Source: a virus. From it: DNA of 64,000 nucleotides. This document shows positions 1-63,765 of the stretch, piece by piece; the stretch's first letter is position 1; each line of letters opens with the position of its first letter. Made by a program: the position numbers and the translations under genes. Location: the IMG/VR virus record IMGVR_UViG_3300033463_000097; one strand, written 5' to 3'. The notes beneath the pieces are model-generated. The model saw nothing but the letters and a program-made list of their open reading frames with translations, ran no database searches and was not told the origin of the DNA.

Positions 1-3000
1 TATTGTGTTACTGCAAATGATAACAGTAATAATAACAATACAGATAACGATTGGGTTGCAATCCAAACGGCTGTTGAAGGCCCGTTATTTAGAGGCTCAA
101 CTCAATATACCGGAGGATTGGTTTTAATTTCTAATGGCACTACCGGGCTAGTATCAGAAAGTGGATATAGTATTGGAGCAAGTATACTCAATGGTAATAT
201 TAATAAAATAGCATATTATTCATCTACCAATACTATTGGTCCTGCATCAACTCATTATATAGATAATTCTCGCATCGCAATTAATAGTACAGGAATGCGT
301 ACTACTGGCACAGGAAGTGAAACGTTATATGTAAATGGCGATGCTGCAATTTATGGCGGATTAAGATTTTATAATAGTAGCGGAAGTAATTATTCAGAAA
401 TTTCTTCTACTTTGTCCGCTAATACATCATAGAATGTTTATTTACCAAACTATGCTGGCAATATTTATATTACTCACACTGGTTCTACAACCGCTGTTGG
501 TAGTTCAACATAGCCAGTATATGTTGATACTAATGGAAGAATAACTGCATTGGGATATACAGCAGGTAGACTATATTATAGTGAAAGTACAACATCGTTC
601 GCTGAAACTAGTCATTATGCAACAACTACAAAACTTGCAATAAATGGAGCGGCAATTCCAGATGAAAACAGTCCTACTTTATATGTAAATGGTAATACTC
701 GCATATATGGTAAAGTTATGGAAGGAAATTCAAACACCGTAGCATAGGGCGCTAATTCCCATGCAGAAGGCTCATGGACGATAGCTTTTGGTGATTTATC
801 TCATGCTGAAGGCTATTATACAACTGCTTTTGGAAATGACTCACACGCTGAAGGTTCTGGTTAGTTATTAAACGGAAGTAGTTAGGCATCAATTCAGATA
901 GAAGGCAGCGGACCAAGTTATACTGCTTCAAGTACAATTCCAACTGTTATAAAAGTGGGTATGTTTTTACGAGATGCTAATAATAATGTTAGAAAAATTA
1001 CAGCTATCAATGGGACTACAATTACAGTAGATTCAGCTTTTCCTGGAGGTTCATTAACTAGTGCCACTGTGTAGGTTGGCACTGGAGCAGGAGGCAGTTG
1101 CTCTCATAGTGAAGGAGTAAGAACAACTGCTTATGGTAATTCGTCTCATACTGAAGGAACAAATACAATTGCAATGAGTAGAAGCTAGCACGTATTTGGT
1201 GAATATAATATTATTGATACGACTGGTACAACAAGTACGCAAGGAACATATGTAGAAATTGTCGGCTGCGGTAATAGTGAGGAAAATAGAAAAAATGCCA
1301 GAACATTAGAATGGACTGGTACTGAATCTATTGCTGGAAACTTTTTGCCTATGGCTTCTAATACTTAGGATATTGGTAATACAGATACATATTGGAATAA
1401 TTTATATATTAATAATGAATATATAAATGGTGGAATCGTTAGATCTTAGGTAGAAGTTGATAATAATACTAATTATAAAATTCATCATATTGTTTCTCCT
1501 GGAGGAGGAGCTTTACATCCTAGCCAGTATAGAGGTTTAGTTACCGGGGCTTTAAAAATTAATTTACCAATAAGTTGGACAGGAACAATGCTTCGTTTTT
1601 CAATTGACATTTACGATTCTCGCGCTAATTCTTCCTATACTCATGGGGCCATAGCCACATACGTTATAGGAGGTTATTTAAGAAATGCTAGTGGAACTAA
1701 TAAATGGGAAAGGGTTACCGCATATTCCTATGGCACTGGCGCTAATCATAATTTATCAGTCAGATTTTAGTATGATAATACTAATTCTAAATGTTGTATA
1801 ACCATAGGCGAAATTAATACTTTATGGAATTATCCATAGGTGATAGTTAGAGATATATGCGCCGGTTATCTTGGTAACGAAGCTAGTAGTTTAGTAAATA
1901 ATTGGGATATAAGTTTCGTTAGCAGCTTTACCGGTTTAACTGAAACCGCTAATACAATAGTTACTAATCCAGCATAGTTTGGTGCGTCTATATTTAAACC
2001 TAATTCATCTGGTAATTTTGTAAGAAATTGGTATTTTATTGGCGCTGGCAATGGTAATATAGGAGTTTTTCCAATTAATACTCGAAAAGAAAATATTTAT
2101 ACTCAAAATGCTTATGGTATTGATAATTGGTATATATATAGTGCAGGATCAATGCAAATTGATCAATATACTAATGATAATTTTAATACTTTGCGTTTTA
2201 ATGGTAATTCTACAACTAGTGGTAGTATAATGCGTTAGATATTATTACCAAAAACATTAGCGATAGGAAATACATATACTCTTACTGTAAAAGTAAGTGG
2301 TATTTAGACGGGAACTCCCCAGGTTTCTGCGGCGTTAGTTGGTTTTAATGCAATAAATCAAAGTACAATTAATCAAATGGGATCAGTTACACTTAATCCA
2401 GGTGTTAATACAGTAACTGTAACTATAACATCTAGTAATTTAACTTCTAATTATTTAGGTGTTTAGATTACATCTCCAAAAGCTGATAATACTCAAGCAA
2501 TTTGGATACAAGCTATTAAAGTAGAACAAGGTTCTGTTTCAACACTATGCGATTAGTCTACTGGAAATTTATTAGATACTCCTCAATATAATGAAGAAAT
2601 ATATAGATGTAAAATAGGTTTTTTAACTTATGAAGAATAGTTATGGGTTTAGGGATCTGGAATTTTTGAAGGGAATCTTTAGACTGGAATAAAAACTTCC
2701 ACCTCACAAAGAGCTATTAATTTATTTACTACTGGAGGACAAATATCTTTAGTAAATAATGTTGGTGATACTAGTGAAAGAGGATTATATGTAAGAAATA
2801 AAACATAGCAAGAAAATAATTCTACTGGTGCGTGGGTATTTGCGGTTAATTAGAATAATGCAATTAGTAGGCTTGCAAATTTTGAAACAAATATAATTCC
2901 TAACGCACATAATACATATACTTTAGGTGCAAGTGGAACATCTTCAACATAGAGACATTGGAAAGATGCATATATAGTTACTACACATGGTTCTTTAGAT

Positions 3001-4302
3001 GGTAATGCTACTACGGCAACAACACTATAGACTGCAAGAACTATAACTATTAAAGATAATTCTGGGACATATAGTGGGGATAGTGTTTCATTTAATGGTA
3101 GTGCAAATATTATTTTAAAGATGCCAGCGACTATTGAAGCAACTAAATTAAAAACCGCAGTAAATTTAACGATAAAAGATAGCGATTCTTCAAACTCCGG
3201 AACAGCCGTTTCATTTAATGGCTCAGCCTCGGTAAACTTGCTTTTACCAGCGACTATTAAAGCGACATTACAAGGAAATGCTTCTACTGCATCAGCTTTG
3301 AGTCCAGGGAGAACTATTAATGGTACTACTTTTACTGGAGCAAGCAATATTACTACTGCAAATTGGGGTACTGCACGAAATATAACAATTGGAAATACCA
3401 CAAGAGCCGTTAATGGAAGTACAACCTATTCTTGGTCATTAAGTGATATTGGGGCAGCTGCCGCAACTCATACTCATAGTTATCTTCCACTCGGTGGAGG
3501 TATTATGACAGGATCTATTGGATATAACCATAGCACATAGAAAGGAACAGATCCTAGCTCTGCAGAAAGCTGGGCAATTAATTTAAAAGATTCTACAGGT
3601 CAAAACAATAATAGCCATTTTATGGCAAGGCTTTATCATGGGTTAGATGCAACTAATGGAAATAGAATTGGTCTTTATGTATATAAACCAGTTGCTGGTA
3701 CAACTAATGCAAGTTTTGTTATGCAATATATTAAAACCAATAGTGTTGCAGTAACAACCTTAGCAGGTAGTATATTAAAAGTTACATATACTGCCGATGC
3801 AACTAATCTTACATCAGGAGCACTTTAGGTATCTGGAGGTATTGGATGTGCAAAAACAATTCGTGGAAATCTTGTTTATGGAGCAGTCTGGAATGACTAT
3901 GCTGAATTTAGAAAAACAGAAATAAAAATAGAACCAGGTAGATGTATTAAAGAAATAGGCAATGATTCACTTGAATTAACTACAAAGCGTTTAGAACGAG
4001 GATGTGAAATAGTATCTGATACATTTGGATTTGCTATAGGTGAAACAGAAGAGTGCCAAACTCCAATTGCATCTAGTGGGCGTGTTCTTGCATATCCATA
4101 TGAATCTCGTGAAGAATTCGCTAAACACATTGGATGGGCAGTATGTTCTGGCCCAAATGGAACTGTTTCAATTATGACAGAAGAAGAGGAAGAAAAGTAT
4201 CCAAGTCGCATTATTGGTACAATTTCTGCGGTTCCCGATTATGAAGAGTGGGGCAGCGGAAATGTAAAAGTTAATGGGCGAGTTTGGATTCGTATTCGAT
4301 AA
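1..4302 (+). CDS. Giant tail fibre / receptor-binding protein (5' partial). Frame 1 reads through about 25 in-frame TAG codons and ends at TAA 4300-4302.
   Basis: All + strand track ORFs in this region (118, 550, 1588, 3121, 3622) are in the same frame. That frame has no TAA or TGA for 4.3 kb, only TAGs. The protein has fibre-like repeats (SHAEG..T.A.GN.SHxEG; TLYVNG..IYG) and a C-terminal region resembling the intramolecular chaperone of endosialidase-type fibres. Confidence 0.75.
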
Positions 4303-19891: not shown

Positions 19892-20021
19892 ATCTCTCTC
19901 CTTAAAAATAATACGCTAATCTACTTACTATTTCATAATCCTTGATAATTATCTATGGTGAAACATTTCCATTCCAAATATTCTATTTGCAAGTTCCAAT
20001 AACGTTTATTTTTACAGAACC

Positions 20022-21674
20022 CTATTCACTAAATAAACTCTCATACTCTTCTTGTTTTACTTTAAATTTTATTAAACAAATATTATTACCAAGAACGATT
20101 TTGATTGTAGGACTTTTATCAGGAGACATTAGAACGAGATTCTGAGCAGTAACTATAACATCGGTTATTGCAACAAGAGGCTCCGCGAATCCTTGGCCCC
20201 ACATTCCATCCAATTCTCCTATTTTTAATATTGTTTCTTTTTCTTCACCAATATTTTTTGCGTCCCATACAAAATCAACTTTATATGTGGTCGAGAAATC
20301 GGTAACTTTTAAACGAGCATCTATATAAGTAACTAAATCTTCTACTTTTCCTTCTGGAATTGAAACGCCGAAAGCACTTGCATGTCCAGAAGCATAATTA
20401 ACTAAACCGCTATTTAAGATAAACTCTCTAAAATTCTCCAACTTCACATTTGATGGGCAGCGTCCGCTTCCCATCCAGTCAAATCTTTTAATTTCACCAT
20501 TATCATCAGTTTCTATTTCCGGCCTCAATAACAAAACAGGTCGTTGATATTTACTAACAAGTTGGTTAGCAATAAGGCCAGTTAAATTTTGATTTAATTC
20601 ATCAGTTACTTTAATCACCAAAACAGGATGTTCCAATAACTCTTCTGTTTCAATTATTTCCTCAATTCTGTCAGCACTTGCTTCACAGGCTTTATTCTAA
20701 TGGTTTTTAGCATTCGCGCATACTCTACAACTCTAATCAACTCTAAATTCCATTTCGCCTTTACATCCCCGTTTTGTTGAAGGGATTTTTTCAAATGCTT
20801 TATAATCAAGCATACTTTCAAACAGAACAGTTTTTTCTTCTTGACTACCCACTCTAATAACAGCATTAATATATGGTGCTATATAGAATGATACTCCAAC
20901 AGGCGTTACGCCATCTCTTAATGAATATTCTTGTTTTTCTACAAATGCTTCTAAAAATGGATTACAAATATGACTTAATCCAAGACTAATAATTTCCTTT
21001 GTTTCGGCGTCTCGAATATCCATCATATCCGCAATAATTCCAATGGCAGCCAAATCTACCAAATCATCAGAGTAGTTTTTACCTATTACAGAATCAATAT
21101 ACTAACAAAATTTAAATACTACTCCTGCGCCAGATAGTGATTTATTTGGATAATCTCCCAGTTGATTATTAACGATACAAGCAATACTATTTGCGCTTTC
21201 CAGTTCATGGTGGTCTAGAACTAGAACCTCAATGCCACGGTCGCGCAATTTCTTATGCTCTGCTATATCGTTACTACCAGCATCGGGAACTATAACCAAC
21301 TATATACCATCGGGTACATTGTCAGATATAATACCGTGCTATTTTCCTTCTTGTAGCCGATAAAAGAAGTTATTTAGCACGGTGCTAGGGGCAATTTGAT
21401 AAGCATAATTCATTAAGAGTGCTGCTGATGTAAATCCATCAACATCGCTATCTACTTGAACAAAAATTTTATGATCATTGGCTAGATGTGATATAAACAT
21501 CTTTGCGCCTTTTTCCATATTGTGAAGTAGTAGCGGGTCAAGAAGGTCTCTTTCTGTGGTGTTTAAGTAATGATGAATTGCTTCGGGGACAATACCCCGA
21601 CTTGCAAATATCCGTTCAATCGGTGTGTATCCATTATTTACCGAGAGTTCCGGATATATAAGTTGATAGTCCAT
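20022..21674 (-). CDS. recJ: RecJ-like DHH-family single-strand DNA exonuclease, 3 in-frame TAG
   Basis: Four track ORFs share one frame. The protein has DHH motifs VQVDSDVDGFTSAA and VLVLDHHE, and a DHHA1 motif YASGHASAFG. Confidence 0.8.
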
Positions 21675-21692
21675 AGGCTAGTCAACCTCCTT

Positions 21693-22796
21693 TCATAAGA
21701 ACACCCTCTCTTTGAATAATTGTAAAAATACTTCTTTACCCTTATCCACAGGAGCATCCTTATAATCGGTTAACTTATTCTTATCCCAAATAAAACTTAT
21801 ATTTATATAATTTTTATACTTACTATATATACTTACTAATTTCTTTTTCTACTTCTAAAATTCTTCGTCGCCTATATACTAAAACTATCTGTCAAACGCG
21901 ATAATAATTTCTTGCGCTCCTGCGTCCATCAGCAACTACATTTGGAAGGCTGTTAAGTTACTGCCGCAGCAGGCCGCAGAAATATCGCAATCAAAACCAA
22001 AATAGGTTTGATATTTTAATACACTCTTTTCTCCTTCAAACACTATTGCTTTCTTTACTCTTGGAATGTTTCTTCGGCTATTATTAAAATTGTATAAATT
22101 CATTCCAAGAGGATGATTATATAATTGTCCATTTGTATAGACTGGCCTATATTTTCCATATAGTTCACAGTCTGCCTCGCACAGATACCGACCGCGCAGA
22201 CCTATAAATCTACCATCTTTATCGAAGTGCGGAATGGTAATTTGGTCAGCACCGGGGAAGTATCCTATTTCAGCATTATTTAATACTTCTTGTGAAATAC
22301 CTTCATCAAGCCAGGGCCGAATTTTTACATCATAGTTAAAGCGTGATAATATTGTATCATCATATTCTTTTAATACGATATTTGGCACTCTGTTTTGAAT
22401 TTCCTATATACGGCTATATCCTGCGAATATTTTCCAATCTTCCAGCTAATCCGTTTCAGGCGCATTTTCTTCACGCCCAGACAAGCCAAAGCGCTAGGCT
22501 ATCCATCTTACAGCATCATTTAAATCAAAATCCAAATCATGCTGTAATTTCATAACTTTAATACATAATTCAAAAATATCAAAAGTGCCGCAATTACTAT
22601 AACATTGAAATAACCCTGTATTAGAGTAAAAATATAATTTGCGAGACGCTTCCTCGGTCAGAGGATTGTGGCATATGGTTTTTGCTATAATACCCGTATT
22701 TACATACTGCGGTTCGGCGCCCCAATCCTCCAACAAATCAAAAATTTGTTCGTCCGATAAGCAATCTCGTATCTCTTGCTTATCAAAAACTAACAT
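21693..22796 (-). CDS. dnaG: DnaG-type DNA primase (zinc finger plus TOPRIM), about 7 in-frame TAG
   Basis: A CHC2 zinc finger (CHNPLTEEASRKLYFYSNTGLFQCYSNCG) and TOPRIM motifs (AIVFEGEKSV, LLMDAGAQEIIIAFD). The frame runs continuously to TGA at 21693. Confidence 0.75.
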
Positions 22797-28823: not shown

Positions 28824-29792
28824 TCATTTTATACTATATCCAAAATCTTTGGCATGAAAATAAAGTTGCCAATAATCTTCGCGTTCGTTTAACTTATCTC
28901 TATCGCACTCTTCTACTACTTCAAAAGTAAAGTTCTCTACTCCAATAGAGTACATAGCGGGATAGAGTTTATTCTATGTCCAGTCCTCGGCACCTACGCC
29001 GCGCTTTACATGCTACTTCCAACGGTCTGCAATATTTGCGGCCTGTCCTACGTAACACATACCATTGTTAATATTGGTAATTTTATATATGCCGGTGCGG
29101 ACATTAGGACCGACCACTCTACCAATCATATCGGTAAGCGGCCTCTCATAATATACTTTATAAATTACTTTATTTAGCGGTGTTTTATCTCGTAGATATG
29201 GAAGTACTTCGCGCAAACGCGCAATCTCAGCAATATCTTCACTGGATAAACATATCCTATAAAAATCTTGCTGTGTTTCCATTGCCATCTTGCGCTATGC
29301 TGCCTCAAGCGCGACTTGAACATCTCGCTAAAGTGCAATTATACGTCCATTCCAATATGAGAATTCTTTTTGCTCTTTTTCAATCGCTTCTTGAAACTCT
29401 TCTGCTGCCTCTTGGAGAGTTTTAGCATACTCTTCTTTTGCTTCTTCTCTGCTAGTTTCTAATTGATTAGCAATATTTTCAATTTCTTTATCAAAACTAT
29501 TCTAAGCAATTTCTAATGCTTGATTATAATAATCCTATGCAGCCTTTGCCTAAGTTTCTTTTAGCGTTTCAAAATGCTACTAAATTTCAACATTTTGAGC
29601 CTAAACAATTTCATAGGTTTTTTCTTCTCGTTCTAACTTTTTAGTTAAAACATTGTACTCTTCTGATAACTATTTATTTTTTTGTTCTAACTCAAAATCA
29701 TACTATTTTGTAGATTGTATTTTCGGTCTTAATATAAGGTATGCCCCACAACATCCTACTATAAGACCGATAAGTATATATAGGATAGTCAT
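28824..29792 (-). CDS. GIY-YIG nuclease domain protein with an N-terminal TM helix plus a glutamine(TAG)-rich coiled-coil; about 14 in-frame TAG
   Basis: GIYKITNINNGMCYVGQAANIADRW...YFHAKDFGYS is a GIY-YIG domain. The reading frame is continuous from ATG 29792 (MTILYILIGLIVGCCGAYLIL...) through track ORF 29013..29288. Confidence 0.5.
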
Positions 29793-37959: not shown

Positions 37960-37988
37960 ATTATAACATATTTTTTTATAGAAAACAA
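37960..37988 (-). promoter_or_regulatory. sigmaA-type promoter TTGTTT-17-TGtTATAAT
   Basis: Upstream of ung. Confidence 0.5.
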
Positions 37989-37989
37989 T

Positions 37990-38020
37990 AAACCCCGTAG
38001 ATAAAAATCTACGGGGTTTA
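37990..38020. terminator. intrinsic terminator (aaccccgtagat / atctacggggtt)
   Basis: A perfect 12-bp stem follows the holin gene. Confidence 0.65.
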
Positions 38021-38023
38021 TAA

Positions 38024-38353
38024 TCATATACCATAATCAGTATTTATGTCAATCGGTTCTTCCTCTTGGCCAGGCTCAAAAGGCAATATTTCATCATCAA
38101 GCAAGTCATTTAGAATTGCTTCATATTTAATACCATTTTTAGTATTTTCTGCTTTTGCCTTATTGTAGTAGAAACCTTGACTTACGCCATATGCGCTCCA
38201 CGCTACACCGGGGATAACGCTAAGCCAAGGTAGAGAACCGGTATATCCGTTGATAACACATAAAAAGGCTAGAACAATATAAGAAATTGTTATAATCCAG
38301 ATTAGTAACCCTTCCCAAATTAGTAATTTTTTGGAAAATTCTTTTTGTTTCAT
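38024..38353 (-). CDS. putative holin (two TM helices, charged C-terminal tail)
   Basis: It lies immediately downstream of the endolysin, and its ATG overlaps the lysin TGA (ATGA). Confidence 0.5.
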   Translation of the reverse strand: MKQKEFSKKLLIWEGLLIWIITISYIVLAFLCVINGYTGSLPWLSVIPGVAWSAYGVSQGFYYNKAKAENTKNGIKYEAILNDLLDDEILPFEPGQEEEPIDINTDYGI

Positions 38354-40056
38354 TTTAGTAATCCCAATTTCTTCAAAATTCTATGAACTACTGTAATGAA
38401 TTCCTCTCTGGTAATATATTTCTTATACATCTTGCGGCCCTTGTCATCACCTTGAATGAAACCATTTTGCTCGGCCCAAGCACGTGCTTCGGCAGACCAA
38501 CTTTCATTTGTGTCTTTATTTGCCTGTTCGACAATCCAAGTTTCCATCATTTCATTAAATCTTTCCTGTGTCATATCTTCATCCTCCTCTGCTAATGCAT
38601 TAGTGACAGTTGTAGCCAATTCGCCCAAACGATTATATAGCCAATCGCCGGGGCAGGATTTATTTGCGAACCAACGATGGACTGTAATAATCATTTCATC
38701 TGCTTTTGGTTCATAACCTAATGCCATAGTCTTATCACTAAACCAGATTAATTTTGTTTTATTATAACGTTTGCATATGTCAATACATAGTCTTATTAAT
38801 GACTAGAAGACAACTTCATTCATACGATATGGGTCAAATGTATCGCTTGCGCATTCAATAGTAATAGCGCGATTATCATTTGCCGTGTTTGAAGAACACC
38901 AACTTCTATCTTTTTCCTCAACATATAGTCCAATGCGGCCGTCCTTATCAATGCCATAATTTGAAGAAGCCTAAGTGGTTGAACGAGCAAACCACGCTCC
39001 AAGTGCTTCTGCAGTGCATTGTCCTACAACGCAATGAGGAGTAATTCTATCAATAGAATGAGTGCGATTTGCAGTCTTATTTGGTGATATTGTTTTTACT
39101 GCGATTAATGGACTATTGCTCATTTCTTGTTTTTCCTCCTCAACTTTTGGCTTTTCTGTTTCATTTACGTTAGTTTTTTTTTCAGTTACAATAAATGGAC
39201 TATATCCTTTTGATTGTAAATCTCTTAACATATTTTCAGCATTACTTCTTACTGAAAATGCTCCTACCTATACTTTATAATATGGGGCAACATATGTAAC
39301 AAAAGCATTTTTATAATTAGCCCCAAGGGTTTTGATTTTATCACAAAAAGCATTTGCATTTTGTTTCGATGCGAAAGCGCCAACCTATATTCTATATATC
39401 ATAGAAATAGTTTCAGTTGGCTATTCAACTGTTTTATATTCATCTTTAAAATAAATAGCAACCATGTTATCAACAGGACGATTGTAAGAAGCAACTGCAT
39501 ATGGCTTTCCACTATATAGTAATCTTGTGCTGCCTCCGCCATCTAAGTTAATAGCATAAGTGCAACCAGTTTTTAATACTATATCAGCCGCTTCGTTAAA
39601 TGTGGCTCCTGGACTATCAATAGAAAATGTATAGACATAATTTTCATCATACCCAATAATAGTTCTACGTGCGCGTCCAGAAATTTCTGTTGCCATAGAA
39701 ATGGGAGCTTTCTATCCGTTTACCACAAGTGGCGGATATCCAGAAATAAAATCTATCCAATTTCTTTCATTATCTCTACCATAGCATAAATTTCCAGTAG
39801 TATCAATACCCATACCATAAATTAAGCCAGTATCAACAGCTTTAATTATTCCATTATCAATATAATCCATTGTTGGTTTTCCATCGCTGAAATTAAAAAA
39901 TCCGCCATTAATTAGAATGTCGGGCTTATTATTTACACTATTATAATAATTATCTAGCGTCTAAGTTGGCTCCTTAGCTGAAACAAAATCAATTTTTTGA
40001 ATATGTTCTTTCTTTGTTTTTGTAATAAATACATTTGACTAAACCTATAATCCCAT
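38350..40056 (-). CDS. multi-domain endolysin: phosphodiester-glycosidase-like domain, two SPOR repeats, Amidase_2-like domain and a C-terminal SLH domain; about 8 in-frame TAG
   Basis: Track ORFs 39421.., 38971.. and 38350.. are in one frame. The domains show AINLDGGGST (NAGPA-like), VGAFASKQNA/VGAFSVRSNAENMLRDLQSKGY (SPOR), a PGRP-like YGIDKDGRIGLYVEEKDRSW...RAITIE, and SWSAEARAWAEQNGFIQGDDKGRKMYKKYITREEFITVVHRIL (SLH). Confidence 0.7.
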
Positions 40057-40102
40057 TCATTTCACCCCTTTATAAAAAAGTAGAGGCTATAAATTATAGC
40101 CT

Positions 40103-41359
40103 CTACGCAATTTCTGCTATTCTACTACGGTGAATTTGTTTCAATTCAACTTCACCATATATATCTTCGCCTCTAAATACTTTTGAGACGCGTCTCATTC
40201 CATTATTTATACCTTCATAATCAACTAAATCAACCTGACTTTTTGTATCGCCATCAAGTATAATGATGGAATCTTCTCCAACTCTTTGAAGAGCAAGTTT
40301 TAATAATTCTACATCCAAATTCTGCGCTTCCGTTATATAAATACCTGCGTTCATTCCAGAGGTGTCATAGCCTCGAATATCGCTCATTGGAAGTAGAATT
40401 AATTTTTCATTATCAATTAACTATTCAACAGCAATCTTTCCACCAATTTTACTTGAAAGAAAATTACCAATTTGTGAATCTAATAGTTTTTCATCACGAG
40501 ACCCAGGATAAAATCCCAATTTTGCTGCATTTTTAGTAGCAACAGTATTGCAAAATATAATAATTTTATCTATTTTTCCCCTATCCAAAAGTGAAAATAA
40601 ATAACCTACAGCAAGATGTGATTTACCTGCGCCCGCAGGACCTTTTATCATTGTAATTTTATTATTCATTAAACTGTCCGCGGCCATAGCCTGATAAATA
40701 TCGCCACGATATGGTTTAACTTCACCTAATTGTTTTGAATAAAAACTTTTATATTTTAGTTGTCTAAATTCTTTTCCAGTCCACAGTAATGTATCTACTC
40801 TCTCTTGGCTTTTTTTATCATATATATTAATATATTCATTGATATATAGCTCTTCACTATATTCCTATTGGTTAGAGTAGAAGTAAGCCATTTCTTCTTC
40901 GTTAAAGTAATATTCTTTATATCCAGTATAATCATCATTATCTATTTTAATGCTTTCGATATTATCTATTCCAAAAATTGGTATCGCGAGCATTTTTAAT
41001 GCAACATCATTCGTAACAAATTTTGGTAATTGTTGAACCATATTACTGTGATGATATACCATAGCAAGAATTTTTGTATCATTGGTTACTTCATATTTAA
41101 ATTCTTCTAATATATCCAGACAATCTATATTATAGGGCAAGCATTCCCATTTATCTGGATTTTCATCAAGTTTATGAAGAAGCTGGCGAGCAGTATACTT
41201 GACGCTTTGGTCCTTATTAGCGGAAGTTTTGATATGCTCTAATTCATTAAGTGTAATGGATGTAATTATAATATTTTCATCCTCTTTTTTATTTTCAAAG
41301 AGCGAATCGGCTACTAATAATAAACTACTTGTATCATAATATTTATTCGTCATCTTCAT
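40103..41359 (-). CDS. phoH: PhoH-like ATPase with N-terminal PIN domain (YlaK-like), 1-2 in-frame TAG
   Basis: PhoH motifs are GPAGAGKSHLAV and LGFYPGSRDEKL. Track ORFs 40865.., 40421.. and 40103.. share a frame. Confidence 0.75.
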
Positions 41360-61052: not shown

Positions 61053-62600
61053 TTACCGGATGCAAGCGTAACGCTCGGAGTCCAGCTTATCGAACATGAG
61101 GTCGTAGGCAGTGACGCCCTTGAGAACCTGCTCGAAGATGACAGGACTGAAACCAGAGACGTAGCTCACGTGGCCGGAGACACGCATCGGGATGTTATCC
61201 TGACGCGCCTGGACGTTCCAGAATACAAGATTCGGCATCTTGTAGCCAGCAGCGTTCCAGCGCTTTTCGATGGTCTCGAAAAGGGTCTCACTTACACCGG
61301 CGTGGCGCATATAGCCCCAGCGGTCGCGCTCAGTACCGTTGCTGCAAGTGCAAGCATTGAACTCCATGTCGGAGACAATGATTACAGATGCAGGAATCTC
61401 GTCCTGAGAGCAGTGGTTCTGCTTTGCGATGCGGAGCATCTGGTCAAAGACAGCCTCCACGTTGGTGCTTCCATCCCAGTCCGCCTGCGCCATACGGTTC
61501 ACCTTGTCGACAAAGTCGACACCGGTTACTTCGATGAACGTAGGACGATCACTGAAGGTGAAAAAGTGGTCTGCAAATGCGCCACGATTGCGCTCGGCGC
61601 AATACATAGCGATAGACAGAGCAACTGCGAGAGGATCGCCGTACATAGAACCAGAGGTATCGGCAACGCAGATACCATTAAAGGTACAACCCTTAAAGTA
61701 ATCTGCAAGATTCTCCCAGTACTTGTTGACCATCAGACGCTCAGTGTCGTCGAGGTCACCACTCTTACGGCCGCCGAAGTAGCCGCCCCAGTGACCGAAG
61801 CGCATAGCCTCCTTGACAACCTCGTAAGGATACAGAGCCTTGGCGTTAACCTTGGTATTCTTATCCTTAGCGAAGTCCTCATAAGACTGAACAGCCTTTT
61901 CAGACTTCATGCGCTCGATATCGTGACGCGCAAACGCGTTACGATAAATCATACCGGCGCGAGAAGGAATCTTGTCGAATTCAATCTCGTCCCAGCGGCC
62001 CGCAGACATCAGACGCTCCAGAACGCGAATGCGCTCACGGAGGATAGACAGAGTCTTGCGGTACTCCTTGTGATTCATGCCGAAATACTTGCGGGTCTTG
62101 TCCGCCAGCTTACGGGAATCCAAGGAGCTAGTATTCTCACTCTTCAGCCACTTAGCCAGAAGAGAAGGAGTCTTGCACTGAACGTCGAGTGCAAGCTGCT
62201 TATGCATCAGCTTGAACGCGTCCTGCTCCAGCGGAGTGCCGACAAAAACATACAGGTCGTCCCAGCGACCGAACTCTGGGACGTACTGCAGATTAGGACG
62301 CATAGACTCAGTGTACTCCCGCGCCAGATACTTGGTCACGACGCGGAAGAAGCGACGCTCACCCTGTCCCCCACGCACGTCGCGCAGATAGAACAGGCAC
62401 TTCATAGCATAGACAGGCTCTTCATCGAAAGCCTTCATGAAGAGGTTGATAACATCAGCATCGGTGCGGGTACGGTATGCCCCACCGAGCGCGAACAGGT
62501 CGAGCAGACCGTCAAGAGTGCTCTTGTAGGTCAGCGCGCCATTCTCAGTGTAGGTGTAGTTGCTCTCGGCCTTGAGAGCATCCATGAACTTGTTAGCCAT
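61053..62600 (-). CDS. vWA-domain protein of the DUF2828 / Ro60(TROVE)-like family; GC-rich (~50%) gene
   Basis: 515-aa ORF with a vWA-like MIDAS region (VADTSGSM). It carries a full-length antisense ORF (61170..62693), has no TAG, and differs in composition from the surrounding genome. Confidence 0.5.
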   Translation of the reverse strand: MANKFMDALKAESNYTYTENGALTYKSTLDGLLDLFALGGAYRTRTDADVINLFMKAFDEEPVYAMKCLFYLRDVRGGQGERRFFRVVTKYLAREYTESMRPNLQYVPEFGRWDDLYVFVGTPLEQDAFKLMHKQLALDVQCKTPSLLAKWLKSENTSSLDSRKLADKTRKYFGMNHKEYRKTLSILRERIRVLERLMSAGRWDEIEFDKIPSRAGMIYRNAFARHDIERMKSEKAVQSYEDFAKDKNTKVNAKALYPYEVVKEAMRFGHWGGYFGGRKSGDLDDTERLMVNKYWENLADYFKGCTFNGICVADTSGSMYGDPLAVALSIAMYCAERNRGAFADHFFTFSDRPTFIEVTGVDFVDKVNRMAQADWDGSTNVEAVFDQMLRIAKQNHCSQDEIPASVIIVSDMEFNACTCSNGTERDRWGYMRHAGVSETLFETIEKRWNAAGYKMPNLVFWNVQARQDNIPMRVSGHVSYVSGFSPVIFEQVLKGVTAYDLMFDKLDSERYACIR

Positions 62601-62684
62601 AGTAGTTTTTCTCCTTTTTCTCTTATTGATTTCCTCTTGGACAAGAGGATTTTTAAGATTTTCCTTTATTTATCTTACTTATAT

Positions 62685-62713
62685 ATTATATAATATTTTT
62701 TTATAAAAATCAA
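62685..62713 (-). promoter_or_regulatory. sigmaA-type promoter TTGATT-17-TATAAT
   Basis: Upstream of the 62600 start. Confidence 0.55.
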
Positions 62714-63739: not shown

Positions 63740-63765
63740 AAAAATACTCCTTTAATAGTTATTTT

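What the first reader, a model, noticed from the sequence alone, without database searches (positions are those of the whole stretch)
38024..40056. Lysis cassette with a 569-aa four-module endolysin (NAGPA-like, 2x SPOR, amidase, SLH) hidden behind 8 TAG codons
Read with TAG as a sense codon, three separate track ORFs join into one gene. The N-terminal region has an LDGGGS phosphodiester-glycosidase-like signature. Two SPOR repeats follow (VGAFASKQNA..., VGAFSVRSNAENMLRDLQSKGY), then a PGRP/amidase_2-like core, then a C-terminal S-layer-homology domain (AWAEQNGFIQGDDKGRKMYKKYITREEFITVVHRIL). The holin overlaps its stop (ATGA). SLH and SPOR cell-wall targeting are unusual in an endolysin. They imply a host with SLH-anchoring secondary cell-wall polymers (Clostridia, Negativicutes or Bacilli).
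Basis: partly seen in the sequence, partly recalled or inferred. Interest (0 to 1): 0.65.

Follow-up and report, generated by a model that had tools for sequence, protein, structure and literature searches.

The report
TAG-recoded four-module phage endolysin gene
A large gut phage that reads the stop codon TAG as glutamine encodes a four-part cell-wall-destroying enzyme, and its gene probably also has two internal start sites that would yield three nested proteins. Each part is a known kind, but the combination is new.

Summary
The gene is real: window 38350-40056, minus strand, 568 aa. It has nine in-frame TAG codons (not eight) and no in-frame TAA or TGA. TAG means glutamine here. Most of the window gene's TAGs align with CAA/CAG in at least one ortholog. 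Two sit on the conserved Q of the SPOR motif.

- **Domains.** Pfam gives NAGPA (47-202, DGGGS motif intact), one SPOR domain (221-291, not two) and Amidase_2 (333-471).
- **New observation.** AGGAGG plus ATG sits in frame at both domain boundaries, codons 312 and 495. The 495 site is conserved in 28-30 of 33 module clusters, against 3.6% background. The gene therefore probably also makes Amidase-SLH (257 aa) and free SLH (74 aa) products.
- **Neighbour.** A holin-like membrane protein overlaps the stop codon (ATGA).

The exact protein is already in public catalogues. TAG-recoded lysis genes, single-SLH endolysins and internal starts are all published. I rate it a new variant of known kinds.

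The parts
38350..40056 (-). Endolysin gene. 568 codons plus a TGA stop, nine in-frame TAG codons read as Gln. Predicted full-length product 64.2 kDa.
40062..40070 (-). Shine-Dalgarno sequence (AAGGGGTGA) of the full-length start codon
   Evidence: (sequence read directly)
40080..40106 (-). Terminator-like hairpin (12-bp stem plus T run) between the PhoH-like gene and the lysin start
40045..40047 (-). In-frame TAG, codon 4. The other eight are at 40039-40041 (codon 6), 39961-39963 (32), 39712-39714 (115), 39421-39423 (212), 39385-39387 (224), 39268-39270 (263), 38971-38973 (362) and 38803-38805 (418).
   Evidence: Codon alignment with orthologs shows CAA/CAG at most of these sites.
39451..39918 (-). 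NAGPA / phosphodiester-glycosidase-like domain, residues 47-202
   Evidence: Pfam PF09992, 84-86 bits against a cut-off of 25. Matches NAGPA structures 6PKU/6PKY and DUF2233 structure 3OHG.
39529..39543 (-). DGGGS motif, residues 172-176. This is the invariant substrate-recognition and catalytic loop of NAGPA.
   Evidence: Nearly invariant in alignment A1. Aligned to NAGPA's DGGGS. Role taken from PMC13474241.
39184..39396 (-). Single SPOR domain, residues 221-291. Both VQVGAF halves have their conserved Q encoded by TAG.
   Evidence: Pfam PF05036, 58-63 bits. Aligns with 1X60 CwlC SPOR.
39121..39140 (-). Internal start signal 1: AGGAGG (39135-39140), an 11-nt spacer, then ATG of codon 312 (39121-39123) at the SPOR/amidase boundary. 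Predicted product is 257 aa, Amidase_2 plus SLH.
38644..39060 (-). [quoted passage not shown] H341, Y367, H460, K466 and C468 are invariant in the family.
   Evidence: Pfam PF01510, 58 bits. PHROG endolysin families, E 2e-83. Invariant columns.
38572..38588 (-). Internal start signal 2: AGGAGG (38583-38588), an 8-nt spacer, then ATG of codon 495 (38572-38574) inside the acidic linker EEDED. Predicted product is 74 aa, 8.9 kDa, with no TAG codon.
   Evidence: The local RNA is unstructured.
38353..38574 (-). C-terminal module, residues 495-568: an extra N-terminal helix plus one divergent SLH repeat. It keeps a Trp, GFIQG (532-536) and TREE (549-552).
38024..38353 (-). Holin-like gene, 109 aa. 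One strong TM segment (16-34), a weaker hydrophobic segment (about 40-63) and an acidic tail. Its ATG overlaps the lysin's TGA (ATGA). It contains no TAG.
   Evidence: Syntenic orthologs.
37988..38021 (-). Terminator-like hairpin (15-bp stem) directly after the holin-like gene

Best explanation
This is the lysis cassette of a large phage (about 132 kb) that uses code 15, where TAG is read as Gln. The phage probably infects gut Clostridia.

The 568-aa endolysin combines two catalytic modules and two wall-targeting modules:
- An N-terminal NAGPA-like phosphodiester glycosidase with an intact DGGGS motif. I infer that it cuts GlcNAc-1-phosphate linkages that attach or decorate wall polymers.
- A SPOR domain. 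From established knowledge, SPOR binds glycan strands stripped of peptides, which is the product of amidases.
- A zinc Amidase_2 that cuts MurNAc-L-Ala.
- A single SLH repeat that I infer binds a secondary cell-wall polymer.

The protein has no signal peptide. Release should therefore depend on the overlapping downstream holin-like membrane protein.

Full-length synthesis needs nine TAG read-throughs. The gene also carries two conserved internal ribosome-binding sites with in-frame ATGs, exactly at domain borders. I infer that it also yields a 257-aa Amidase-SLH form (two TAGs) and a free 74-aa SLH polypeptide (no TAG). Free SLH copies would let the single repeats assemble into the three-pronged SLH fold together with the enzyme.

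Shown: the reading frame, TAG = Gln, domain identities, conservation of the start signals, and synteny. Inferred: use of the internal starts, oligomerisation, the NAGPA substrate, and holin function.
For: **Frame and code.**
- Nine TAG codons and no other in-frame stop.
- With TAG read as sense, 94% of the window is coding, and 39 of 77 ORFs carry TAG.
- Seven of the nine window TAGs align with CAA/CAG, or with a shared TAG, in orthologs.
- Two TAGs encode the conserved Q of the SPOR motif VQ[IV]GAF.

**Domains.**
- Pfam hits for NAGPA, SPOR and Amidase_2. PHROG endolysin families match at E 2e-83.
- DGGGS and the zinc ligands are invariant in alignment A1. The role of DGGGS is taken from PMC13474241.

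**SLH.**
- Family members pass the Pfam SLH cut-off: 37.1, 33.4, 25.1 and 22.6 bits.
- Those members match the window's family profile at 86 bits.
- That profile finds canonical three-repeat SLH proteins at E 1e-16 to 1e-22 among 1.84 billion proteins.

**Internal start at codon 495, across 33 module clusters.**
- 30 have ATG or GTG at module residue 1.
- All 7 Val starts use GTG, although GTG is only 16.6% of Val codons elsewhere in these ORFs.
- 28 have GGAGG at -20 to -4, against 13 of 358 (3.6%) for other in-frame starts.
- Glu-Glu pairs elsewhere are GAGGAG in only 3 of 64 cases.
- Genuine stand-alone module genes with their own SD exist in related phages (L011, L061).

**Internal start at codon 312.**
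- AGGAGG is kept in 5 orthologs even though the linker residues differ (EEEKQE, KEELKV, SGGINS, KEEPQV, SGGITD).
- It is absent in the two orthologs that have F or Y instead of M.
- Codons 312 and 495 are the only in-frame starts with an SD in the window gene.

**Cassette and precedents.**
- PhoH - lysin - small membrane protein - UDG synteny holds in 122-179 kb contigs.
- Precedents: single-SLH LysBT1 trimerises, and two-polypeptide endolysins are common.
Against: - No protein or expression data exist for any product.
- The window's own C-terminus is below the Pfam SLH cut-off. Its monomer model has no significant structural match. The tandem model that hits SLH structures has only pLDDT 64.6.
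- No suppressor tRNA was found in the window or in related pieces.
- The holin-like protein matches no holin family, and its tail is acidic rather than basic.
- TAG also occurs in primase, a RecJ-like gene, a radical-SAM gene and UDG. Suppression therefore cannot be purely a late event, and a lysis-timer role for the TAGs is not established.
- SD-like linkers could be relics of gene fusion.
- No bacterial or phage NAGPA-family enzyme acting on cell walls has been characterised, so the substrate is a guess.
Confidence: 0.72

Rival explanations
1. The internal AGGAGG+ATG signals are not used for initiation. They would be leftovers of the gene fusions that built the protein, carried along with each module. 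Alternatively they are SD-like pause sites that help the domains fold one after another. On this view the gene makes only the 568-aa protein.
For: The segment from M312 to the end equals a complete stand-alone endolysin of related phages that begins MSNS.L (L020, L032, L048). The module also exists as its own gene (L011, L061). Fusion history is therefore real. Pinto et al. estimate a notable false-positive rate for predicted internal starts: 15% of portal genes have one.
Against: The modules have diverged to about 45% identity, so silent sites should have drifted. Yet GAGGAG/AGGAGG and ATG/GTG persist in 28-30 of 33 clusters. All Val starts are GTG. At codon 312 the SD is kept through different amino acids, and it is lost together with the Met in two orthologs. 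A pause site would not need a start codon at fixed spacing.
Confidence: 0.22
2. The nine TAGs have no specific regulatory meaning for lysis. They only reflect genome-wide use of TAG as an ordinary Gln codon. Timing of lysis is set by transcription and by the holin.
For: TAG makes up 19% of Gln codons across the window. It occurs in 39 of 77 ORFs, including primase (8), a RecJ-like gene (8), a radical-SAM gene (9), a GIY-YIG gene (12), PhoH and UDG. Orthologous lysins carry only 2-3 TAGs. The holin-like gene has none. Terminator-like hairpins bracket the cassette.
Against: The lysin is enriched for TAG: 9 of 18 Gln codons, binomial p = 0.003. Core replication genes lack TAG entirely: PolIII-alpha-like, DnaB, gyrase A and B, ligase, RNase H. 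Borges et al. report a lysis-gene bias in other recoded clades.
Confidence: 0.5
3. The protein is not the endolysin. It would be another wall hydrolase, for example a virion-associated lysin used at entry, and the neighbouring small protein is not a holin.
For: The cassette lies among replication and nucleotide-metabolism genes rather than next to structural genes. The small protein has no holin family hit.
Against: There are no tail or virion domains. The best PHROG matches are endolysin families. The Amidase-SLH part is orthologous to annotated endolysins that sit beside holins in cultured Clostridia phages. The tight ATGA coupling to a conserved membrane protein is kept in all orthologs.
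Confidence: 0.06
4. The gene is a decayed pseudogene and the TAGs are real stops.
For: In the standard code the frame breaks into fragments of at most 125 aa.
Against: All nine interruptions are TAG and none is TAA or TGA. They align with Gln codons in orthologs. Catalytic and motif residues are invariant. The same pattern is genome-wide.
Confidence: 0.01

Closest known systems
LysBT1 (Brevibacillus thermoruber prophage endolysin, PMC12285257) and Paenibacillus LysPt1/7/9/10 (bioRxiv 10.64898/2026.09.23.753664)
   Same: An N-acetylmuramoyl-L-alanine amidase followed by a flexible linker and ONE C-terminal SLH repeat carrying Trp, GIIxG-like and TRAE-like motifs. LysBT1 trimerises, and its SLH is predicted to form the three-prong spindle.
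   Different: The window's SLH repeat is far more divergent and falls below the Pfam cut-off. It has an extra N-terminal helix (MTQE.FNEMM). It is preceded by a conserved internal SD+ATG. The protein also carries NAGPA and SPOR modules, and the gene is TAG-recoded. No internal start is reported for LysBT1.
Two-polypeptide endolysins encoded in single genes: Lys170, LysIME-EF1, CD27L/CTP1L, LysP7951 (PMC9430671, PMC7098653, PMC4777826)
   Same: An in-frame internal SD plus start codon in the linker before the wall-binding domain. The free binding domain multimerises with the full-length enzyme.
   Different: The binding domains in those cases are not SLH. Here the products are predicted, not shown. 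A second internal start lies upstream, and the three nested frames contain 9, 2 and 0 recoded stop codons.
Staphylococcus phage phi2638A endolysin isoforms (PMC12203907)
   Same: An internal start removes the N-terminal catalytic domain and gives an Amidase+CBD short form alongside the full-length enzyme. This parallels the codon-312 start.
   Different: The domains differ (M23-Amidase_2-SH3b), and that gene uses the standard genetic code and has been tested experimentally.
TAG-recoded (code 15) gut phages: crAss-like, Lak, Garnet/Amethyst/Topaz and others (Borges et al., bioRxiv 10.1101/2021.08.26.457843; Peters et al., PMC9523058; phAss-1, PMC10607447)
   Same: Low-GC large phage. In-frame TAG read as Gln in lysis and structural genes. 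Core replication genes are TAG-free. The hosts use the standard code.
   Different: Here several replication-associated genes (primase, RecJ-like) are also recoded. No suppressor tRNA was found in the 64-kb window. I did not place this phage in any named clade. It has no DNA-level relative among 50,697 deposited phage genomes.
B. subtilis CwlC (amidase + SPOR, PDB 1X60) and gut-phage CHAP-NAGPA-SH3_3 endolysins (PMC13284279)
   Same: CwlC pairs a MurNAc-L-Ala amidase with one SPOR domain. The 2026 gut-phage survey lists NAGPA as a second catalytic module in four endolysins.
   Different: CwlC uses Amidase_3 and is a host autolysin. None of the surveyed architectures is NAGPA-SPOR-Amidase_2-SLH. 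No NAGPA module of any lysin has a demonstrated substrate.

Membership tests
Code-15 (TAG to Gln) recoded phage | In-frame TAG codons inside conserved genes, with no other in-frame stops | tested here: met
   Nine TAG and zero TAA/TGA in the lysin. 143 TAG codons across 39 of 77 ORFs. Coding density is 94% with TAG read as sense.
Code-15 (TAG to Gln) recoded phage | TAG positions correspond to glutamine in homologs | tested here: met
   TAG aligns with CAA/CAG in orthologs L004 and L014. TAG falls on the conserved Q of SPOR VQ[IV]GAF when aligned with CwlC 1X60.
Code-15 (TAG to Gln) recoded phage | Phage-encoded suppressor tRNA (anticodon CTA) | tested here: inconclusive
   The window holds only tRNA-Cys and two tRNA-Lys, at 63766-64002. 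None was found in related pieces. About 68 kb of the genome could not be reached. Borges et al. detect one in only about 40% of TAG-recoded genomes.
NAGPA / phosphodiester glycosidase (PF09992) | Profile match above the curated cut-off | tested here: met
   84-86 bits against a cut-off of 25, covering 5-169 of 169 profile positions.
NAGPA / phosphodiester glycosidase (PF09992) | Invariant DGGGS loop with the catalytic Asp | tested here: met
   D172-S176 are present and nearly invariant in the family. They align to NAGPA's DGGGS. Role taken from PMC13474241.
NAGPA / phosphodiester glycosidase (PF09992) | Hydrolysis of a GlcNAc-alpha-1-phosphodiester | not testable with these tools
   Needs an enzyme assay. 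The wall substrate is my inference.
SPOR domain (PF05036) | One domain of about 76 aa made of two beta-alpha-beta halves | tested here: met
   Single hit at 221-291, 58-63 bits. End-to-end alignment with 1X60. There is one domain, not two.
Amidase_2 (PF01510) N-acetylmuramoyl-L-alanine amidase | Profile match plus zinc ligands (His, His, Cys) and the Tyr/Lys catalytic residues | tested here: met
   58 bits against a cut-off of 26. H341, Y367, H460, K466 and C468 are invariant in A1. Assignment of their roles follows T7-lysozyme-type amidases and comes from my own knowledge.
SLH (PF00395) | The sequence itself scores above Pfam's gathering cut-off | tested here: not met
   14.5-15.6 bits against 20.8.
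SLH (PF00395) | Homology to SLH repeats at family level | tested here: met
SLH (PF00395) | Conserved Trp, GIIxG-type loop and TRAE motif used for SCWP binding | tested here: met
   W (in SWSAEARAW), GFIQG at 532-536 and TREE at 549-552. Motif definition taken from PMC12285257.
SLH (PF00395) | Three tandem repeats forming one pseudo-trimeric domain | tested here: not met
   There is one repeat only. Trimerisation of separate chains would be needed, as in LysBT1, OmpM or SlpA.
Two-polypeptide (internal-start) endolysins | In-frame SD plus start codon in an inter-domain linker, conserved among relatives | tested here: met
   Codon 495: 28-30 of 33 clusters against 3.6% background. Codon 312: 5 of 7 orthologs, and lost together with the Met in the other two.
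Two-polypeptide (internal-start) endolysins | Two or more polypeptides actually produced and assembling | not testable with these tools
   Needs expression, MS and SEC-MALS.
Holin | Small membrane protein with at least one TM segment and a charged C-terminus, encoded next to the endolysin | tested here: met
   109 aa. TM segment at 16-34 (Kyte-Doolittle score 2.84), a weaker segment at about 40-63, and a net charge of -9 over the last 40 residues. ATGA overlap with the lysin. Conserved in orthologs.
Holin | Membership of a described holin family | tested here: not met
   No Pfam or NCBIfam hit. The only match is PHROG 17876, of unknown function, at E 1.6e-4.

The most novel reading that the evidence does not exclude
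One recoded gene is a three-in-one lysis device. Ribosomes would start at codons 1, 312 and 495 and make NAGPA-SPOR-Amidase-SLH, Amidase-SLH and free SLH. The single SLH repeats would co-assemble into hetero-trimers that dock on the host's secondary cell-wall polymer.

The three nested frames contain 9, 2 and 0 TAG codons. The efficiency of TAG suppression during infection would therefore set both the timing and the subunit ratio of the complex. The NAGPA module would detach or uncap GlcNAc-1-phosphate-linked wall polymers so that the amidase can reach the peptidoglycan.
Probability: 0.25. Interest if true: 0.72.

Novelty: new variant of a known kind. Interest (0 to 1): 0.5.

Why it matters
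- **Annotation.** Standard-code gene calling shatters this enzyme. It also creates spurious 'stand-alone' 70-aa proteins, many of which sit in public catalogues.
- **A wall-binding module family.** The SLH-like module is a widespread wall-binding module of gut Clostridia phage lysins that Pfam precomputation mostly leaves unannotated. A profile of it gives 495 representatives at E <= 1e-10 and 15,236 at E <= 1e-3, the looser set merging into ordinary SLH proteins. It is attached to Amidase_2 and CHAP domains and, judging by sequence, to other catalytic domains. It nearly always carries its own ribosome-binding site. This points to a large, untested class of multimeric endolysins. It also suggests how single SLH repeats reach the trimeric state.
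- **Engineered lysins.** For lysins aimed at gut Clostridia, the free SLH subunit may be required for activity.
- **NAGPA substrate.** The NAGPA module is a candidate enzyme for cutting the phosphodiester that ties wall polymers to peptidoglycan. No such activity has been assigned to any phage protein.

Tried and rejected
- **Profile against PDB sequences.** The top hit was Sap SLH, but at E 0.14 only.
- **Rival weak Pfam hits.** Ish1 and Lsr2 appeared weakly. I rejected them after the family-level SLH evidence.
- **Suppressor tRNA hunt.**
  - The window and nine loci held none.
  - Exact-match scans of viral and JGI contigs with tRNA-array sequence found nothing.
  - Seven related IMG/VR pieces held only ordinary tRNAs.
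  - The ENA contig starts at about window position 63755, so the rest of the tRNA array was unreachable.
  - A look-up with the 515-aa neighbour failed.
- **DNA-level relatives.** Among 50,697 deposited phages, only short matches to the amidase portion appeared, and nothing matched the gyrase-ligase block.
- **phAss-1 (PMC10607447).** I considered it as a possible relative because of its similar size and TAG recoding. No link was established.
- **NAGPA in deposited phages.** Only weak hits (E about 1e-3) to hypothetical proteins.
- **Full architecture in bacterial reference genomes.** Not found. Matches cover only the amidase, with or without the SLH-like part.
- **Pseudogene reading.** Rejected; see the rival explanations.
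Full report
**The observation.** On the minus strand, an ATG at 40056 opens a frame that runs to TGA at 38350-38352. The ATG is preceded by AAGGGGTGA. The frame contains nine TAG codons (codons 4, 6, 32, 115, 212, 224, 263, 362, 418) and no TAA or TGA. The product is 568 aa. In the standard code the frame falls into fragments of at most 125 aa. The next gene (38024-38353, 109 aa) starts at an ATGA overlap with the lysin stop. The TAG count (eight) and the length (569) are each off by one.

**TAG is a glutamine codon in this genome.**
- With TAG read as sense, 94% of the window is coding. The 77 ORFs end in TAA (55) or TGA (22), and 39 of them contain TAG.
- In a codon alignment with two orthologous lysins from 179-kb and 122-kb contigs, the window's TAGs mostly face CAA or CAG. 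The orthologs' own TAGs face Gln or similar codons in turn.
- Codons 224 and 263 encode the conserved Q of the SPOR motif VQ[IV]GAF, as seen against B. subtilis CwlC, PDB 1X60.
- Half of the lysin's Gln codons are TAG (9 of 18), against 19% for the window overall (p = 0.003).
- This is the known code-15 phenomenon of gut phages. Borges et al. report that lysis and structural genes are preferentially recoded.
- Here recoding is not confined to late genes. Primase and a RecJ-like gene carry 8 TAGs each, a radical-SAM gene 9, a GIY-YIG gene 12, and PhoH and UDG also carry some. PolIII-alpha-like, DnaB, gyrase A and B, ligase, RNase H and the holin-like gene have none. A lysis-timer role for the TAGs therefore remains a hypothesis.
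- No suppressor tRNA is present in the window. I could not reach the other half of the genome.

**Domain content.**
- Pfam gives NAGPA at 47-202 (84 bits), one SPOR at 221-291 (58-63 bits) and Amidase_2 at 333-471 (58 bits). PHROG endolysin families match at E 2e-83.
- The NAGPA module keeps the DGGGS loop (172-176). A 2026 structural study of human NAGPA describes this loop as strictly invariant from bacteria to man and as containing the catalytic Asp.
- The amidase keeps H341, Y367, H460, K466 and C468.

**The C-terminal module and SLH.**
- The window's own sequence scores only 14.5-15.6 bits on Pfam SLH, below the cut-off of 20.8.
- Its AlphaFold monomer consists of three helices at pLDDT 85 and resembles nothing in the PDB.
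- Family-level evidence settles the question.
  - Relatives from IMG/VR and the protein catalogue score 22.6-37.1 bits on SLH. They match the window's family profile at 86 bits.
  - That profile, searched against 1.84 billion representatives, retrieves proteins with three, five, six or seven matched stretches at E 1e-16 to 1e-22. The seven I checked with Pfam are canonical SLH proteins scoring 122-209 bits.
- The Trp, the GFIQG loop and TREE correspond to the Trp, GIIxG and TRAE motifs used for polymer binding.
- The module is therefore one divergent SLH repeat preceded by an extra helix (MTQE.FNEMM). It is not a three-repeat SLH domain.

- The module begins with an invariant Met. The acidic linker before it is encoded as GAG GAG GAT GAA GAT, which spells AGGAGG eight bases before the ATG.
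- I examined 72 distinct loci falling into 33 clusters at 80% identity. These were IMG/VR contigs plus the orthologs.
  - 30 clusters have ATG or GTG at this position.
  - All seven Val codons there are GTG, although GTG is only 16.6% of Val codons elsewhere in the same ORFs.
  - 28 clusters have GGAGG at -20 to -4, most often AGGAGG with an 8-nt spacer. The figure is 3.6% (13 of 358) for other in-frame ATG/GTG codons.
  - Glu-Glu pairs elsewhere are GAGGAG in only 3 of 64 cases.
- The signal persists whatever the linker residues are (PVKEEEE, SQKEEEI, RLEGEE, YEEDDD) and whatever catalytic domain sits upstream. Pfam confirmed Amidase_2 and CHAP in two cases. The other upstream domains I judged only from their sequences, as GH25-like, phage-lysozyme-like and M15-like.
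- In two related phages the module is a separate gene with its own SD (L011, L061).
- Many of the '70-aa proteins' in the catalogue are artefacts. They are the tail of a recoded lysin called in the standard code after a TAG.
- The local RNA is unstructured.

**The internal start at codon 312.**
- A second signal lies at the SPOR/amidase border, where MSNSPL begins the amidase part.
- AGGAGG sits 9-11 nt upstream in the window and in four orthologs. The linkers nevertheless read EEEKQE, KEELKV, SGGINS, KEEPQV and SGGITD.
- The two orthologs with Phe or Tyr in place of Met have no SD.
- Codons 312 and 495 are the only in-frame starts with an SD in the whole window gene.
- About 43% of ORF starts in the window carry a comparable SD core.

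**Mechanism proposed.**
- Shown: the reading frame, the meaning of TAG, the four modules, the intact catalytic motifs, the two conserved start signals, and the conserved synteny PhoH - lysin - small membrane protein - UDG - RNase H - gyrase - ligase in contigs of 122-179 kb.
- Inferred:
  - The gene yields a 64.2-kDa full-length enzyme (nine TAGs), a 257-aa Amidase-SLH form (two TAGs) and an 8.9-kDa free SLH polypeptide (no TAG).
  - The single SLH repeats assemble into a trimer, as LysBT1 does. The free copies would supply the partners, as in the two-polypeptide endolysins Lys170, CTP1L and LysP7951.
  - The codon-312 form parallels the phi2638A short isoform.
  - SPOR, which from established knowledge binds peptide-free glycan strands, would hold the enzyme on the amidase's own product.
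  - NAGPA would cut GlcNAc-1-phosphate diesters of wall polymers. This last point is the weakest, because no wall substrate is known for any family member.
- The protein has no signal sequence. Export should depend on the downstream membrane protein, which has one strong TM segment, a weaker second one and an acidic tail. It is conserved in orthologs but matches no holin family. It has no good SD and overlaps or abuts the lysin stop in all orthologs, which suggests translational coupling.
- Terminator-like hairpins flank the cassette at 40080-40106 and 37988-38021.

**Host.** The amidase part is 60-72% identical to endolysins of phages and prophages of Ruminococcus, Oscillospiraceae, Acutalibacteraceae, Faecalibacterium, Lachnospiraceae and other Clostridia. 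None of the listed matches covers the NAGPA domain. The four-module form was seen only in the family of large recoded phages (P0001-P0014; three further members, P0015-P0017, lack the SLH module).

**Comparison with what is known.**
- The identical protein is already in public catalogues (P0001).
- TAG-recoded lysis genes are published.
- SPOR and Amidase_2 combinations are common, and CHAP-NAGPA-SH3_3 lysins were listed in a 2026 gut-phage survey.
- A single C-terminal SLH on a phage amidase was first reported in 2025 and again in 2026.
- Internal starts are predicted in about half of Gram-positive phage endolysins.
- I found no paper that combines SLH, endolysin and internal translation, and none linking 'phosphodiester glycosidase' with endolysins.
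- The finding is thus a new variant built from known kinds. The new elements are the specific four-module architecture, a large SLH-like module family that carries its own ribosome-binding site, two nested internal starts in one lysin gene, and their overlay on a recoded frame.

**Verdict.** The gene is of moderate interest (0.5). It is not a new principle. It is a clear, testable case of a multi-product, probably multimeric endolysin, and it gives a useful handle on an unannotated wall-binding module of gut Clostridia phages.

Noticed in passing
window 39121-39140 (minus strand): A second internal AGGAGG+ATG lies at codon 312, the SPOR/amidase border. The SD is conserved at nucleotide level through different linker residues in five orthologs. 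It is absent where Met is replaced by Phe or Tyr. The part from codon 312 onward equals a complete stand-alone endolysin of related phages.
   Followed up: partly
window 40080-40106 and 37988-38021 (minus strand): Strong terminator-like hairpins lie immediately before the lysin start and immediately after the holin-like gene. No recognisable sigma-70 promoter lies between the upstream hairpin and the start codon. Expression of the cassette may need read-through or antitermination.
   Followed up: no
window 63766-64002 (minus strand): A tRNA cluster (Cys-GCA, Lys-TTT, Lys-CTT) runs off the end of the window. The 132,035-bp ENA contig of the same phage begins at about window position 63755. The assemblies are therefore permuted and the genome is probably circular or terminally redundant. 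No suppressor tRNA was seen.
   Followed up: partly
window 28824-29792 (minus strand): A GIY-YIG endonuclease-like gene has 12 TAG codons in 322 codons, the highest density in the window. A likely mobile homing-type gene thus follows the phage's own code.
   Followed up: no
window 19902-22796 (minus strand): A RecJ-like exonuclease (590 aa) and a DNA primase (367 aa) carry 8 TAGs each. The adjacent DnaB-like helicase and the PolIII-alpha-like polymerase carry none. Recoding is therefore not limited to late genes in this phage.
   Followed up: partly
window 118-4302 (plus strand): A 1394-aa ORF has 25 TAG codons, with TAG encoding 56% of its Gln. Its repetitive Ser/Thr/Gly/Asn-rich sequence looks like a tail fibre. 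Neighbouring plus-strand ORFs at 56-61 kb include XkdX- and XkdV-like products and also use TAG.
   Followed up: no
window 61053-62600 (minus strand): A 515-aa TAG-free protein carries DUF2828/DUF7788. A 507-aa open frame lies on the opposite strand (61170-62693), which hints at unusual local composition. The exact protein was not found by look-up, although the ENA contig encodes a 515-aa product there.
   Followed up: no
L011 2945-5221 (155-kb contig ERZ28614714 scaffold_94): In a related phage the lysis locus reads CHAP lysin, then a stand-alone 71-aa SLH-like module gene with its own SD and two TAGs, then a CHAP+SH3_3 lysin. The free module here is a separate gene rather than an internal-start product.
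   Followed up: partly
L007 3188-4219 and catalogue proteins P0131-P0240: Many 63-73-aa 'hypothetical proteins' in public catalogues are the C-terminal SLH-like module of recoded lysins. They were called as separate genes because a TAG lies upstream and the conserved internal Met offers a start.
   Followed up: yes
L124 (Acutalibacter caecimuris) and L162 (Roseburia MAG), about 3001-3783 and 527-1273: Prophage amidases in standard-code Clostridia genomes end in a single SLH-like repeat (SAWAKAATEYCKRKGIFAGDGAGNFDWQKPITREQ). This repeat lacks the N-terminal helix and has no internal Met or SD. It is a second form of the single-SLH binding module.
   Followed up: no
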